This document shows, piece by piece, positions 35,150 to 43,094 of a DNA stretch of 64,000 nt. A program made the translations under genes and the position numbers. The notes beneath the pieces are model-generated. The model searched no databases. It saw nothing but the letters and a program-made list of their open reading frames with translations, and was not told the origin of the DNA. Source of the stretch: the human T2T-CHM13v2.0 reference genome, Homo sapiens. Positions within the stretch are counted from its first letter, which is position 1. Each line of letters begins with the position of its first letter. Location: assembly GCF_009914755.1 (NCBI RefSeq), contig NC_060944.1. One strand, written 5' to 3'.

Positions 35150-35298
35150 TGAATCCGTTGACGTCCTGAGAACTAGAAGAGAAGCCTTCATCATTGCGGC
35201 TGGCGCTGAGCTTGGTGGTGGGTTTGTCGGCAGAGGCCACAGGCCCCATCTCCCTCTGGGCTCCACTCTGGGTCTCCTTCTGCTTCTTGGCCAGCTTC
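35150..35298 (-). CDS. PTPRT: Internal coding exon (149 nt) of receptor tyrosine phosphatase rho; juxtamembrane region just after the TM helix
   Basis: Minus strand has a branch-like CTGAC (35335-35331), a pyrimidine tract TTTTTTCCCCTT, acceptor AAG|G at 35299/35298 and donor TTCA|GTAAGT at 35150/35149. It translates (phase 2 in, phase 1 out) as [49 protein letters not shown], matching my recollection of human PTPRT. Flanking exons are not in the window. Confidence 0.93.
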
Positions 35299-35834
35299 CT
35301 TTGGGACATGTGCAAGGGGAAAAAACCACAGTCAGATGGTGCCAGTTGCATTAAAGCATTGGGTAGATTGTTCTTCCCCAATGCTCATCCTCAACCCCCA
35401 AATCTGGTTCATTCTCCAGAAAAAGAATCAAGGCAGAACAAACCATGAATGGTTTCCATTTACTCAGAAATATGAGACTCACGCTGCTGCCTCACCCCCG
35501 ACAATGCATGTGTTCTATGTTTGAGCCTAAAATGGGAAATCAATGAGACTTGTACAATGCTTCCCCCACTCTCCTTTCAGAGGAAATCAACAAGATTTGT
35601 ATTCCTTTCCCTAAGTCTCCTTTCAGAGGGAGGAAGTGGCTAGACTGGCCTTTCTGTTTCTGTGGCTCTGAATGAGATTAAAAATGGAGGCTTGTCTTTC
35701 TCAGGAACTGAGCTCATCAAAAACCTACCAAATAATAGTAGAGTGAAGCAGGGGCTGGTGGTTGGAAATGGATGAGTGTGCGGGTTAGTTTCACAGCTCA
35801 AAAGAAGGAAATTTAGAGCTGAATTGATGCAACC

Positions 35835-35852
35835 TTATTCCCATGGGAATAA
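35835..35852. promoter_or_regulatory. Perfect 18-bp palindrome containing EBF/COE consensus ATTCCCNNGGGAAT
   Basis: TTATTCCCATGGGAATAA in non-repeat DNA. Motif match only. Confidence 0.45.
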
Positions 35853-35915
35853 AAGACCCTCAGAACCAGACGGATATTATCATAATATAACTATTATGAT
35901 AATAATAGTGTAGAG

Positions 35916-36077
35916 CAGTGCTTCTCAAACTTTGGTGTAAATTTGAATCACCTGAAGAGTCACAAAAAAATACACACACACACACACACACAGAGGCTCA
36001 GGATCATTGAAGTAGGACAGGACCTAGAATTCTACATGGCCATCAAGTTCCCCAAGTTATTCTGACACCAGCCACTG
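35916..36077. mobile_element. MER5-family MITE with internal (CA)n
   Basis: CAGTGCTTCTCAAACTTT..GAATCACCTG..AAGTTCCCC. Confidence 0.7.
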
Positions 36078-36084
36078 GAGGTTA

Positions 36085-40367: not shown

Positions 40368-40386
40368 TCGCCAGCAGGGGGTACCA
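40368..40386 (+). promoter_or_regulatory. CTCF-like motif
   Basis: TCGCCAGCAGGGGGTACCA against consensus TGGCCASCAGRGGGCRCYA. Motif match only. Confidence 0.4.
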
Positions 40387-40868
40387 AAAGCTGATAAAAA
40401 GAGAGTATGCATAAGTCTGTTTATTCCTTTGCAGGAACATTTCCAAAGCTGAAGACTGTTTTAAGACACAGCAATCCAAAGTTTACTGCTTCTGACAGGT
40501 GAGGACGAGGTGACGCGGCCATAGCTCTTGGCATTTTCCTTCTAACGGATCACTTTGAGCTCTCTCTGACCTTCGCTTGTTAGCTGAGGGAGGGGTAGGT
40601 GGCAGGGGATGGGCCCAGGATGGACCATGAGTCCTGTGATTTGTTCTGAGTGCCACTCTTTACAAGGGATACTGGCAGGTAGAATGGCTCACGGGAGAGG
40701 AATGAAGGGCTGTTAAAAGTGTGGAAATCATGCTACGAGAGGAGGAGTGCGTGAAACATCCAGGGACATTTCTCACGGAGAGGGAATACAAAGTAACGTT
40801 CTCTTCATGCATCTGATGGTTGGGTCTCTATGGTCCCAGGGGCAGAATGAGGACCAGGTTGGCTTGAT

Positions 40869-41082
40869 ACAACGAAGGAATTTCTTTTTTTTTTTTTATT
40901 ATACTTTTAGTTTTAGGGTACATGTGCACAACGTGCAGGTTTGTTACATATGTATACATGTGCCATGTTGGTCTGTGGTGGGGTGGGGGGAGGGGGGAGG
41001 GATAGCATTAGGAGATATACCTAATGTTAAATGACGAGTTAATGGGTGCAGCACACCAACATGGCACAACGAAGGAATTTCT
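40869..41082 (-). mobile_element. Tiny 5'-inverted (twin-primed) L1PA4/5-type 3'UTR insertion
   Basis: TSD ACAACGAAGGAATTTCT at 40869-40885 and 41066-41082. Poly(T) plus L1 3' end is on minus (40886-40972), then L1 3'UTR is on plus (40973-41068). Confidence 0.92.
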
Positions 41083-42179
41083 AGCAAAGTAGAACTGCTT
41101 AGGTCTCTTTTGGAAGCACCTAACGCCTGAATTCCCCTCCCCAATTTTTCTGGTTTAGCAACCTTCTCTTCACCTTTTAAGGCCCAACTCAAATGTCCCC
41201 TACTCTTAGAAGTCTTTGCCTCCTTCCCAAAGTTAGAAGTTCCCTCCTCTTTGCTCATTAATTTGTTGGACAAATAGTTAATGAGCAAGTACGTTGAATC
41301 TGTGGCTGTTAGAAGGAAGGAGATGATGATATGAAAAACAAGACAGGAATCCTGCCCTGTTTGGCTTTTGCAAGTACTCAGCTCCCTGCTATTGGAGAAG
41401 TTCAAGTAGAGACTGGGAAACCACTTAGAAAAGAGGTGGTGGAGGATCCCAGGATTTGGACTCTGCAAAACCCTTGACTCTCTTCTGGGCTAGGAACAGG
41501 ACCATCCAGCCAACTGGTGGGGGCAGGAGTCTACAGGGTTCCACCTAGAGTTTTTCCCTGAATGTGGGAGCCATGCCCACTCTCCTGGGGAGACACTGAT
41601 CAGGCACTCTTCCTCTTCCCCATAGGGCTCCTCCTCTGGGCCATCCTCCATTGCAATCTCCAGATAAACTTTCCTGGAAACCATGAAGATTGAAATCCTG
41701 GAGTCAGAGATCTCAGCCATAGGAAGTGGACCAAAAAAAAAATTCACAAGTGAGGCCCTGCTTCTACTAAAAGCTGGCACTGTCCTCTTTGAATCCAGGA
41801 TGCTCTGCTGGCATGACTAGATCTCAGCTTAAAGTTACACATCGCAACTGTAAGGGAACTATAGCATCTTCTCATTTCATAGACAAGACACTGAGGCCTG
41901 GACAGAGTAGTCCCTTAGCTAAGATGCACAGCATGTAGGATGCAAGCCCTGCTTTCTGCCTGCCAGTTCAGGAATGTGGACACCTGCTCCACATTCCTCC
42001 ATGCTTCTTCTAGGGATTTGCCCTTCCAGATTAGAAGGGCAAATTCAGTCTGTGGTACACATGATTCCAGTGTCTTACAAATGCAGCAAAACTTTATTCA
42101 TCTATGCCCCCACTGACTCAGAATTACTGTAATTGAGGCAAAGGCTGAGCTACATCACATAAGAATCAATAGTGTAGCA

Positions 42180-43094
42180 GGGGGAGGAGCCAAGATGGCC
42201 GAATAGGAACAGCTCTGGTCTACAGCTCCCAGCGTGAGCGACGCAGAAGACGGTGATTTCTGCATTTCCATCTGAGGTACCGGGTTCATCTCACTAGGGA
42301 GTGCCAGACAGTGGGCGCAGGTCAGTGGGTGCGCGCACCATGCGCGAGCCGAAGCAGGGCGAGGCATTGCCTCACTTGGGAAGCGCAAGGGGTCAGGGAG
42401 TTCCCTTTCCGAGTCAAAGAAAGGGGTGACGGACGGCACCTGGAAAATCGGGTCACTCCCACCCGAATACTGCGCATTTCCGACGGGCTTAAAAAACGGC
42501 GAACCACGAGATTATATCCCACACCTGGCTTGGAGGGTCCTACGCCCACGGAGTCTCGCTGATTGCTAGCACAGCAGTCTGAGATCAAACTGCAAGGTGG
42601 CAGCGAGGCTGGGGGAGGGGCACCCGCCATTGCCCAGGCTTGCTTAGATAAACAAAGCAGCCCGGAAGCTCGAACTGGGTGAACTGGGCGGAGCCCACCA
42701 CAGCACAAGGAGGCCTGCCTGCCTCTGTAGGCTCCACCTCTGGGGGCAGGGCACAGACAAACAAAAAGACAGCAGTAACCTCTGCAGACTTAAATGTCCC
42801 TGTCTGACAGCTTTGAAGAGAGCAGTGGTTCTGCCAGCACGCAGCTGGAGATCTGAGAACCTGCAGACTGCCTCCTCAAGTGGGTCCCTGACCCCTGACC
42901 CCCGAGCAGCCTAACTGGGAGGCACCCCCCAGCAGGGGCACACTGACACCTCACAAGGCAGGGTATTCCAACAGACCTGCAGCTGAGGGTCCTATCTGTT
43001 AGAAGGAAAACTAACAAACAGAAAGGACATCCACACCGAAAACCCATCTGTACATCACCATCATCAAAGACCAAAAGTAGATAAAACCACAAAG
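42180..43094 (+). promoter_or_regulatory. L1 5'UTR: CpG-rich internal sense promoter plus antisense promoter (ASP) pointing in PTPRT sense
   Basis: The YY1 site CAAGATGGCC (42191-42200) is intact and many CpGs are retained. There is a small 9-bp duplication GAACTGGGY at 42672-42689. The ASP location is established knowledge for L1PA 5'UTRs. Confidence 0.85.
42322..42630 (-). CDS. L1 ORF0 (antisense ORF), open, 102 aa here, with splice donors SD1 (42525/42524) and SD2 (42440/42439)
   Basis: MAGAPPPASLPPCSLISDCCASNQRDSVGVGPSKPGVGYNLVVRRFLSPSEMRSIRVGVTRFSR... lies inside ORF-track entry 42322..42708. Donors CCAG|GTGTGG and CCAG|GTGCCG fall after ORF nt 106 and 191. Confidence 0.85.
   Translation of the reverse strand: MAGAPPPASLPPCSLISDCCASNQRDSVGVGPSKPGVGYNLVVRRFLSPSEMRSIRVGVTRFSRCRPSPLSLTRKGNSLTPCASQVRQCLALLRLAHGARTH

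What the first reader, a model, noticed from the sequence alone, without database searches (positions are those of the whole stretch)
35150..42630. Predicted in-frame L1 ORF0-PTPRT fusion: a retrotransposon-driven, membrane-free phosphatase
Seen: the L1 is antisense to PTPRT, so its antisense promoter fires in PTPRT sense. ORF0 is open from ATG 42630. Donor SD2 (CCAG|GTGCCG, 42440/42439) falls after 191 nt, i.e. 63 codons plus 2 nt. The next PTPRT acceptor, ~7.1 kb downstream (35298), is phase 2. Joining them reads ...VTRFS-R(AG|G)[10 protein letters not shown]... in frame. Established: L1PA antisense promoters give chimeric host transcripts (as with L1-MET), ORF0 donors splice to nearby exons, and the two PTPRT phosphatase domains lie downstream of this exon and act on STAT3 and paxillin. 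Inference: when this L1 is demethylated it could make 64 aa of ORF0 fused to the whole cytoplasmic region, resembling a released intracellular domain without needing proteolysis. Caveat: this SD2 has C at +5, so it is a weak donor.
Basis: partly seen in the sequence, partly recalled or inferred. Interest (0 to 1): 0.92.

Follow-up and report, generated by a model that had tools for sequence, protein, structure and literature searches.

The report
Unobserved in-frame L1 ORF0–PTPRT fusion
An old, dead L1 retrotransposon sits backwards in a PTPRT intron, and its small antisense gene could in principle splice in frame onto the phosphatase's intracellular part, but no evidence shows that this splice happens, so the fusion remains a plausible and fairly ordinary prediction.

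Summary
The sequence observation is correct. A full-length L1PA2 (window 42180-48242, + strand) lies antisense to PTPRT. ORF0 opens at ATG 42630. An SD2-type donor (exon end 42440, CAG|GTGCCG) falls after 191 nt, and joining it to the phase-2 exon 35298-35150 reads in frame.

I also showed three supporting points:
- The transmembrane helix is encoded by an upstream exon.
- Two phosphatase domains lie downstream.
- The join keeps 8 of 10 residues of a published putative PTPRT nuclear-localisation signal.

The coincidence is weak, however. The 191-nt (phase 2) spacing is a family property, seen in 15 of 19 sampled copies, so the chance of a frame match is about 1 in 3. The donor is a weakened one-base-insertion variant shared by 190 genomic copies.

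The only published chimera at this L1 is two unspliced read pairs in 2 of 11 brain/glioma samples. These run straight across SD2. PTPRT is absent from the other L1 antisense-transcript catalogues I could open.

Verdict: a real L1 with an intact ORF0. The fusion is a legitimate but unsupported prediction, and would be a new member of a known kind (ORF0-exon fusions). Low to moderate interest.

The parts
42161..42176 (+). 5' target-site duplication of the L1 insertion (16 nt). Three extra bases (42177-42179) separate it from the L1 body.
   Evidence: The same 16 nt recur at 48347-48362.
42180..48242 (+). Full-length L1PA2 body: 5'UTR, ORF1, broken ORF2, 3'UTR and first poly(A). It is antisense to PTPRT and corresponds to hg19 chr20:40834909-40840957.
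   Evidence: Pfam matches of ORF1 and the ORF2 pieces. RepeatMasker label L1PA2 at 2.5% divergence in Table S1 of PMC9396940. Identity with that hg19 element rests on the spacing to the next L1PA2: 414,627 bp here against 414,698 bp in hg19.
42322..42630 (-). ORF0, 102-codon variant. ATG at 42630 (L1 position 451), stop at 42324-42322.
   Evidence: No Pfam match. The extra length over the 71-aa form follows from a one-base insertion just 3' of SD2.
42631..42980 (-). Presumed antisense-promoter / transcription-start region (L1 about +452 to +800).
   Evidence: Inferred only, from the position given for the L1-ASP core in PMC9396940. There are no TSS data for this copy.
42517..42527 (-). SD1-type donor CAG|GTGTGG. 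Exon end 42525, 106 nt from the ATG, phase 1; out of frame with the PTPRT exon.
42432..42442 (-). SD2-type donor CAG|GTGCCG. Exon end 42440, 191 nt from the ATG, phase 2; in frame with the PTPRT exon. It is the insertion variant with C at +5.
   Evidence: 190 exact genomic copies of this variant out of 847 for the context pattern. U1 duplex -6.8 against -7.8 kcal/mol for the no-insert form.
42093..42098 (-). AATAAA followed by a GT-rich stretch, about 80 nt beyond the L1 5' end. Candidate poly(A) site for an unspliced antisense transcript.
   Evidence: Consensus match only; use not shown.
35150..35298 (-). PTPRT juxtamembrane exon (149 nt) with a phase-2 acceptor. It encodes [10 protein letters not shown]...DVNGF and has its own donor TCA|GTAAGT.
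   Evidence: Hub annotation. The acceptor has A at -3, a CTGAC branch-like motif and a T/C tract.
43095..44111 (+). L1 ORF1, intact, 338 aa.
   Evidence: Pfam PF17489, PF02994 and PF17490.
44175..48002 (+). L1 ORF2, broken into at least 4 open pieces, with 11 stops in its main frame.
   Evidence: Pfam PF03372, PF14529 and PF00078 on the pieces.
48243..48346 (+). 3' transduction (about 85 nt, with AATAAA at 48297-48302) plus a second poly(A), followed by the 3' TSD at 48347-48362.
   Evidence: The stretch matches G000:C1:158455677-158455763 at 95%. No L1 sits next to that site in this assembly.
36940..37251 (+). Alu that is antisense in the PTPRT-sense transcript. It lies between the L1 donors and the exon and is a possible source of decoy splice sites.

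Best explanation
This is an ordinary reference-genome L1PA2 that can no longer retrotranspose. It carries a short 3' transduction and lies antisense in the roughly 49-kb PTPRT intron between the transmembrane exon and the first cytoplasmic exon.

Its antisense side is intact: a CpG-rich 5'UTR, an ORF0 with a good start context, and both ORF0 donors. The in-frame fit of SD2 with the next PTPRT exon is real. It arises because a family-wide property (SD2 always leaves phase 2) meets a phase-2 exon, which is a 1-in-3 event.

If the antisense promoter fires, the expected main product is an unspliced L1 chimeric transcript. It would encode the 102-aa ORF0 variant and run into the flank, possibly ending at the AATAAA about 80 nt beyond the L1. 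Splicing from the weakened SD2 across 7.1 kb to the PTPRT exon would be at most a rare, minor event.

Shown: the anatomy, the frames, the position of the transmembrane and phosphatase exons, the frequency of the donor variant, and the published unspliced read pairs. Inferred: promoter activity, use of the poly(A) site, and the rarity of the splice.
For: - Anatomy and frames.
- SD2 phase is generic: 191 nt in 15 of 19 sampled copies.
- Donor weakness: the donor here is the one-base-insertion variant, 190 of 847 context matches. The majority form CAG|GTGCGT keeps G at +5. U1 duplex is -6.8 against -7.8 kcal/mol.
- Published chimera: Table S2 of PMC9396940 lists Id_2655 at this very L1. It has 1 read pair in 1 of 8 gliomas and 1 in 1 of 3 control brains, 0 in the other 9 samples. 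It was not RT-PCR validated and has no EST. Its L1-side block (about window 42320-42497) runs uninterrupted across SD2, and its other block (about 42108-42241) crosses the L1 5' end.
- Base rates: the same paper finds splicing at the 5' end in only 44 of 1509 chimeric transcripts, 2.9%. Criscione 2016 quotes 57 observed ORF0-exon fusions among about 3200 genic ORF0 loci.
- Catalogues: PTPRT is absent from the 10 supplementary files of Criscione 2016, from the 8 files of PMC10506190, and from the main texts of PMC10619931 and PMC6639357.
- Obstacles in the intron: the 7.1-kb interval holds 10 AATAAA/ATTAAA hexamers. By a crude count, 49 AG sites have a pyrimidine tract at least as rich as the real acceptor, and 11 of these have Y at -3 and at least 80% pyrimidines.
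Against: Nothing rules the splice out.
- The L1 has the favourable orientation: 92% of intragenic chimera-producing L1s in brain have the antisense promoter in gene sense.
- ORF0 is the first AUG and has a good context.
- The first 500 nt of the 5'UTR keep 32 CpGs, obs/exp 0.74.
- The hub's table lists a RefSeq 'enhancer' at 41850-42482 over the L1 5' end.
- SD2 still pairs with U1 from -3 to +3 and is only about 1 kcal/mol weaker than the common form, similar to SD1.
- The target exon is used constitutively and has a perfect GTAAGT donor.
- The catalogues I could open are EST-based or shallow short-read sets. I could not see the primary ORF0 fusion list (Denli 2015), table S3 of PMC10619931, or the supplementary data of PMC6639357.
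Confidence: 0.72

Rival explanations
1. When the L1 5'UTR is demethylated or the locus is active, the antisense promoter yields an mRNA spliced from SD2 to exon 35298. Translation from the ORF0 ATG gives 63 ORF0 residues, a junction Arg, and the whole PTPRT cytoplasmic region. The product would be a soluble, probably nuclear phosphatase that mimics the protease-released intracellular domain and lowers pSTAT3-Y705.
For: - The join is in frame.
- The junction codon AG|G gives Arg, the same as the native junction after the transmembrane exon.
- The transmembrane helix (…[21 protein letters not shown]…) lies in an exon about 20.7 kb beyond the window end. The fusion N-terminus has no hydrophobic segment: maximum Kyte-Doolittle 19-residue mean 0.56.
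- Five PF00102 exon hits lie on the minus strand downstream, in the order expected for two tandem domains.
- The preprint 10.1101/2021.01.11.426157 (passages read) reports that the free intracellular domain is nuclear through a putative signal [10 protein letters not shown] and reduces pSTAT3-Y705. The fusion would keep RKLAKKQK.
- ORF0 protein is described as nuclear (PMC7746726).
- ORF0-exon fusions and L1 alternative promoters for neuronal genes upon DNMT1 loss are documented.
Against: - No junction, EST or catalogue entry was found.
- The only chimera at this L1 is unspliced across SD2 and has 2 read pairs. These could equally be PTPRT pre-mRNA from ribo-depleted total RNA.
- The donor lacks consensus at +4, +5 and +6.
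- SD1, which is at least as good, is out of frame.
- Base rates of 5' splicing are about 2-3%.
- PTPRT is not among the genes named for DNMT1-knockout progenitors (main-text passages only).
Confidence: 0.1
2. The antisense promoter does drive spliced transcripts into PTPRT, but from SD1, from other donors, or from start sites downstream of the ORF0 ATG. The result would be out of frame or non-coding (NMD-prone). At best it would be an N-terminally truncated PTPRT started at the internal Met of ...QREMGPV... in exon 35298-35150, with no ORF0 part and without the putative nuclear signal.
For: - SD1 (CAG|GTGTGG, phase 1) has a U1 duplex of -7.1 kcal/mol, against -6.8 for SD2. Its join reads a different frame through the exon.
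- PMC9396940 describes antisense start regions near +200 as well as +450. A start near +200 would lie downstream of both ORF0 donors, which sit at L1 positions 346 and 261.
- The exon contains an in-frame ATG.
Against: There are no transcript data for this either. The same catalogue absences apply.
Confidence: 0.08
3. The antisense promoter of this copy is silent in all normal contexts. The two published 'chimeric' read pairs are simply PTPRT intronic pre-mRNA passing through the L1, so the element has no transcriptional output of its own in PTPRT sense.
For: - The reads come from Ribo-Zero total RNA of brain and glioma, where the host gene is transcribed. They are collinear with the genome, and this chimera had no 5' RT-PCR walk.
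- The paper itself finds that chimera levels follow host-locus transcription.
Against: The authors argue from poly(A) RNA and 5' walking on 36 other chimeras that most such chimeras start in the L1. The hub lists an enhancer-type RefSeq element over the L1 5' end.
Confidence: 0.1

Closest known systems
ORF0-proximal-exon fusion transcripts and proteins of primate L1 (Denli et al. 2015, as described in PMC4908685, PMC4859970 and PMC13517631; the primary paper was not held)
   Same: An ORF0 on the antisense strand of an L1PA 5'UTR, with two internal donors (SD1, SD2). The host exon lies downstream in the same sense, and the SD2 join is in frame.
   Different: Those 57 fusions were observed in RNA and ribosome data. 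This one is only predicted. The SD2 here is the insertion variant with C at +5, and the unspliced ORF0 is 102 aa rather than 71 aa.
L1 antisense-promoter chimeric transcripts acting as alternative promoters of neuronal genes (PMC6639357; PMC10619931; L1-MET, named in the finding and listed among the L1-regulated genes in PMC6639357)
   Same: A young, full-length L1PA2 that is antisense to and intronic in a brain-expressed gene, so that antisense transcription runs in gene sense.
   Different: PTPRT is not named in the passages I read from those papers, and their supplements could not be opened. No annotated TSS in this L1 is known to me.
CLIFinder chimera Id_2655 (PMC9396940, Table S2)
   Same: It is this very L1 and this host gene, on the minus strand.
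   Different: It is an unspliced read-through of the L1 5' end with 2 read pairs in 2 of 11 samples. It is not the spliced fusion.
[quoted passage not shown]
   Same: A membrane-free cytoplasmic region with both phosphatase domains. It is reported to be nuclear and to lower pSTAT3-Y705. The predicted fusion starts one residue into the same juxtamembrane stretch.
   Different: PICD is made by proteolysis of the full receptor. The fusion would be made by an alternative promoter and splicing, would carry 63 foreign N-terminal residues, and would keep 8 of the 10 residues of the putative nuclear signal.

Membership tests
LINE-1, subfamily L1PA2, full-length insertion | ORF1 with trimerisation, RRM-like and C-terminal domains | tested here: met
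   PF17489, PF02994 and PF17490, E 4e-32 to 2e-63, on the intact 338-aa ORF.
LINE-1, subfamily L1PA2, full-length insertion | ORF2 with endonuclease and reverse-transcriptase domains, intact | tested here: not met
   The domains are present (PF03372, PF14529, PF00078), but the frame is broken into at least 4 pieces with 11 stops in the main frame. The element is a member but not retrotransposition-competent.
LINE-1, subfamily L1PA2, full-length insertion | Poly(A) tail and target-site duplication | tested here: met
   A 16-nt TSD at 42161-42176 and 48347-48362, and two poly(A) tracts around an approximately 85-nt 3' transduction.
LINE-1, subfamily L1PA2, full-length insertion | Subfamily assignment | tested here: met
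   RepeatMasker calls it L1PA2, 2.5% divergence, model positions 124-6155, for hg19 chr20:40834909-40840957. I showed this is the same element by the spacing to the next L1PA2. I ran no subfamily diagnostic myself.
ORF0-bearing L1 5'UTR | Antisense ORF of about 70 aa with a start codon in good context | tested here: met
   ATG at 42630 with G at -3 and +4, and no upstream ATG in 170 nt. The ORF is 102 aa here because of a one-base insertion after SD2. No-insert copies give 71 aa in 6 of 8 sampled.
ORF0-bearing L1 5'UTR | Two internal splice donors | tested here: met
   CAG|GT at exon ends 42525 and 42440. That these are the sites called SD1 and SD2 in print is inferred, since the primary paper was not held.
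ORF0-exon fusion / spliced L1 chimeric transcript | In-frame compatibility of donor and acceptor | tested here: met
   (SD2 only).
ORF0-exon fusion / spliced L1 chimeric transcript | Transcript evidence: an antisense start in the L1 and junction reads to the exon | not testable with these tools
   No RNA data are at hand. Accessible catalogues: 0 hits in 10 files, 0 hits in 8 files, and one unspliced chimera.
Soluble PTPRT intracellular domain (PICD-like) | Lacks the transmembrane helix and signal peptide | tested here: met
   The transmembrane helix lies in an exon about 20.7 kb beyond the window end, upstream in gene sense. The fusion N-terminus has a maximum hydropathy of 0.56.
Soluble PTPRT intracellular domain (PICD-like) | Contains both phosphatase domains | tested here: met
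   PF00102 exon hits on the minus strand at C20:43850270, 43842205 and 43838678 (model positions 49-222), then 43830315 and 43813783 (model 36-222). All lie downstream of the exon. This assumes native splicing downstream.
Soluble PTPRT intracellular domain (PICD-like) | Putative nuclear signal [10 protein letters not shown] | tested here: inconclusive
   The fusion keeps RKLAKKQK, 8 of 10 residues. The first two residues come from the transmembrane exon.

The most novel reading that the evidence does not exclude
In cells where this hominid-specific L1PA2 is unmethylated or the PTPRT locus is open (early embryo, hESC, neural progenitors, hypomethylated tumours), its antisense promoter makes an ORF0-PTPRT mRNA through the weak SD2. 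The mRNA is translated into a nuclear, receptor-independent phosphatase that dampens STAT3 signalling. This would be a primate-specific, methylation-gated way of producing a PICD-like activity without ADAM10/gamma-secretase cleavage.
Probability: 0.05. Interest if true: 0.6.

Novelty: new member of a known kind. Interest (0 to 1): 0.25.

Why it matters
If the fusion were real, it would link L1 demethylation directly to a tumour-suppressor and neuronal phosphatase acting on STAT3. It would also be a hominid-specific way to make the active intracellular domain without proteolysis.

As it stands, it is one of many sense-oriented ORF0 loci whose SD2 happens to match the phase of the next exon. Its value is as a cheap, precise query: one junction to look for in existing RNA-seq data. 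It is not a discovery.

Tried and rejected
**Literature**
- Searches for PTPRT with ORF0 and with 'L1 antisense promoter' returned 0 papers each.
- PTPRT with L1PA2 returned 1 paper, and PTPRT with LINE-1 and chimeric returned 3. All mention PTPRT only as a mutated gene.
- A four-term search returned 128 papers. None of the 20 listed contains PTPRT.
- The primary ORF0 paper (Denli 2015) and Speek 2001 were not held, so the published positions and usage of SD1/SD2 and the list of 57 fusions were not seen.
- One search timed out, and I replaced it with a narrower one.
- Two further passage look-ups gave nothing on the ORF0 donors: the splice-donor mentions in PMC6425141 concern other elements and its reporter assay, and PMC7746726 has no occurrence of 'splice', SD1 or SD2.

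**Exon frame by paralogy.** Searching the exon peptide against the genome found only itself, so there was no paralogue support. The frame rests on the annotation, on the stops in one of the other two frames, and on the matching phase of the two upstream exons.

**Search for the transmembrane exon.** The first hydropathy screen was too strict and found nothing. A relaxed screen gave 7 candidates, of which one is clearly the transmembrane exon.

**U1-duplex energies as a proxy for donor strength.** They separate the sites only weakly (-6.8 to -7.8 kcal/mol) and allow out-of-register pairing, for example -9.6 for a CGG|GTGGGA site. I treat them as indicative only. No MaxEnt-type model was available.

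**Source of the 3' transduction.** The matching chr1 site has no L1 next to it in this assembly, so the progenitor was not found.

**Private-mutation idea.** I considered and rejected the idea that the C at +5 is private to this copy. It is shared by 190 copies.

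
Full report
**1. Observation**

- The ORF0 ATG is at 42630, with G at -3 and G at +4. No ATG occurs in the 170 nt upstream.
- The frame stays open for 102 codons, to the stop at 42324-42322.
- There are two CAG|GT donors. CAG|GTGTGG has its exon end at 42525, 106 nt from the ATG (phase 1). 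CAG|GTGCCG has its exon end at 42440, 191 nt from the ATG (phase 2).
- The PTPRT exon begins at G 35298 after ...cccaaag and is 149 nt long. It ends before a perfect GTAAGT donor.
- Joining by coordinates in a script, the SD2 join reads ...[16 protein letters not shown]...DVNGF without a stop. The SD1 join is out of frame.
- The intron would be 7141 nt.

**2. What the element is**

- The repeat is a full-length L1 on the + strand. Its body runs from 42180 to 48242.
- ORF1 is intact at 338 aa and carries the three L1 ORF1 Pfam domains.
- ORF2 carries endonuclease and reverse-transcriptase matches. It is split into at least four pieces, with 11 stops in its main frame. The copy therefore cannot retrotranspose.
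- A 16-nt target-site duplication flanks it, at 42161-42176 and 48347-48362.
- Between the first poly(A) and the 3' duplication lies about 85 nt of foreign sequence with its own AATAAA and a second poly(A). This is a 3' transduction.
- The transduced stretch matches contig 1 at 158,455,677 with 95% identity. No L1 sits beside that site in this assembly.

Table S1 of PMC9396940 (supplement read) lists an L1PA2 at hg19 chr20:40834909-40840957: + strand, 6049 bp, 2.5% divergence. The next antisense-promoter-bearing L1 on that chromosome is a minus-strand L1PA2 at 41243577-41249607. In this assembly a minus-strand full-length L1 lies at C20:44346758-44352807. The 5'-end-to-5'-end spacing is 414,627 bp here against 414,698 bp in hg19. 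The window's L1 is therefore that L1PA2.

**3. Gene context**

I fetched 100 kb upstream in gene sense and found two exons.
- **Transmembrane exon.** Its hydrophobic stretch begins at extended window coordinate 84742, and the exon ends near 84.65k. It reads ...[28 protein letters not shown] and ends AG|GTGAGT. The native junction codon with exon 35298 is therefore AG|G = Arg, the same residue the SD2 join would give.
- **30-nt alternative exon.** It encodes RNAYSYSYYL, lies at about 72.2k, and has the same phases. I found it with a motif recalled from memory.

Both exons lie upstream of the L1 in gene sense. The L1 therefore sits in the last intron before the cytoplasmic region.

A genome search with PF00102 returned 157 matches, 150 of them listed. 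Five are exon hits on the C20 minus strand between 43,813,783 and 43,850,374. Their model positions (49-83, 128-177, 173-222, then 36-78, 155-222) are in the order expected for two tandem phosphatase domains, and all lie downstream of the exon.

The predicted fusion N-terminus has no hydrophobic segment: the maximum 19-residue hydropathy is 0.56. So the 'membrane-free, whole cytoplasmic region' part of the reading is structurally sound.

**4. Is the frame match remarkable?**

No. I sampled 19 L1 5'UTR copies, taken from the first listed pattern hits on contigs 1 and 2, so the sample is not random. The ATG-to-SD2 distance is 191 nt in 15 of them. SD2 therefore always leaves phase 2, and any phase-2 exon downstream is in frame, a 1-in-3 chance. 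With SD1 (phase 1), two of the three exon phases fit one donor or the other.

**5. The donor**

- The C at +5 comes from a one-base insertion directly after GTGC.
- The exact 25-mer occurs 190 times in the genome, out of 847 hits for the same context with or without one inserted base.
- Most copies have CAG|GTGCGT, which keeps G at +5 and T at +6.
- In the sampled copies, the no-insert form gives the 71-aa ORF0 in 6 of 8 (one is 70 aa, one truncated).
- The C- or T-insert forms give 102 or 114 aa in 7 of 11, with 4 truncated.
- As a rough proxy, the U1 5'-end duplex energy is -6.8 kcal/mol for this SD2, -7.8 for the common form, -7.1 for SD1 and -7.2 for the PTPRT exon's own donor.
- The donor is weakened but not dead.

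**6. The acceptor and the intron**

- The acceptor has a CTGAC branch-like motif and a T6C4 tract, but A at -3.
- The 7.1-kb interval has 10 AATAAA/ATTAAA hexamers on the minus strand. One lies at 42098-42093, about 80 nt beyond the L1 5' end, and is followed by a GT-rich stretch.
- An Alu at 36940-37251 is antisense in the transcript.
- By a crude count, 49 AG sites have pyrimidine tracts at least as rich as the real one. Of these, 11 have Y at -3 and at least 80% pyrimidines.

**7. Expression evidence in print**

- **The one chimera at this L1.** Table S2 of PMC9396940 holds chimera Id_2655, assigned to PTPRT. It has 1 read pair in 1 of 8 IDH-wild-type gliomas, 1 in 1 of 3 control brains, and 0 in the other 9 samples. 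It was not validated by 5' RT-PCR walking and has no EST.
  - Converted to window coordinates, its L1-side block is about 42320-42497 and its other block about 42108-42241.
  - The reads are therefore collinear with the genome and cross SD2 unspliced.
  - They come from ribo-depleted total RNA of tissue that transcribes PTPRT, so they may be pre-mRNA.
- **Base rates.** That paper (passages read) reports splicing at the 5' end for only 44 of 1509 chimeras, 2.9%, and finds that chimera levels follow host-gene transcription. Criscione 2016 (passages read) quotes 57 observed ORF0-exon fusions among about 3200 genic ORF0 loci.
- **Catalogues without PTPRT.** PTPRT is absent from the 10 supplementary files of Criscione 2016 and from the 8 files of PMC10506190. 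Term searches of the main text of PMC10619931 and across the library also find no link. PMC6639357 names CDH8, GABRR1, MET, SYT1, TUSC3, TBCK and PLCB1 as L1-driven genes after DNMT1 loss, but not PTPRT.
- **Sources I could not see.** These are Denli 2015, table S3 of PMC10619931, the supplementary data of PMC6639357, and the other 10 RefSeq PTPRT transcripts. Any of these could change the verdict.

**8. Function if it existed**

A bioRxiv preprint (10.1101/2021.01.11.426157, abstract and passages read) covers the free intracellular domain. It reports that:
- a putative nuclear signal [10 protein letters not shown] at its N-terminus takes it to the nucleus;
- the free domain lowers pSTAT3-Y705.

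The fusion would keep [11 protein letters not shown]0 protein itself is described as nuclear (PMC7746726).

**9. Verdict**

My estimates are inference, based on the base rates, the favourable orientation, and the weak donor:
- about 0.1 that SD2-to-exon junctions exist at a reproducible level somewhere;
- about 0.05 that a functional fusion protein is made.

The most likely state is an ordinary intronic L1PA2. Its antisense output, if any, is unspliced and encodes the 102-aa ORF0 variant.

Noticed in passing
window 48243-48346; G000:C1:158455677-158455763 (L030): The L1 carries an approximately 85-nt 3' transduction with its own AATAAA and a second poly(A). The only other genomic match (95%) is on contig 1, where no L1 is adjacent in this assembly. 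The progenitor copy is therefore absent or was never fixed there.
   Followed up: partly
window 42435-42439 and 190 other genomic sites: A one-base insertion just 3' of ORF0's second donor defines a sub-lineage of L1 5'UTRs: 190 exact copies with C, and others with T. It removes the +5 G of the donor. It also shifts the unspliced ORF0 frame, giving 102- or 114-aa products instead of 71 aa.
   Followed up: partly
window 42093-42098, minus strand: An AATAAA followed by a GT-rich stretch lies about 80 nt beyond the L1 5' end. It is a candidate terminator that would give a short polyadenylated antisense RNA of roughly 0.55-0.7 kb.
   Followed up: no
L003 and L002 (extended window coordinates about 84.6k and about 72.2k; outside the window): These loci hold the PTPRT transmembrane exon (ending AG|GTGAGT) and a 30-nt alternative exon encoding RNAYSYSYYL. 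Both are phase-compatible with exon 35298.
   Followed up: partly
window 40873-41071: A short fragment resembling an L1 3' end lies in the opposite orientation, starting with a T13 run. It is flanked by a direct repeat of about 16 nt (CAACGAAGGAATTTCT), so it looks like a heavily 5'-truncated L1 insertion with its target-site duplication.
   Followed up: no
window 36940-37251 and 37854-38185: Two Alu elements lie in opposite orientations about 600 bp apart, in the intron between the L1 and the exon. The second abuts a (GT)n run. An inverted Alu pair can form double-stranded RNA in the pre-mRNA.
   Followed up: no
window 42180-42679: The first 500 nt of the L1 5'UTR keep 32 CpGs (obs/exp 0.74), against 0.08 in the flank. 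The hub's table places a RefSeq 'enhancer' (41850-42482) across the L1 5' end and its flank. I could not see the source assay.
   Followed up: no
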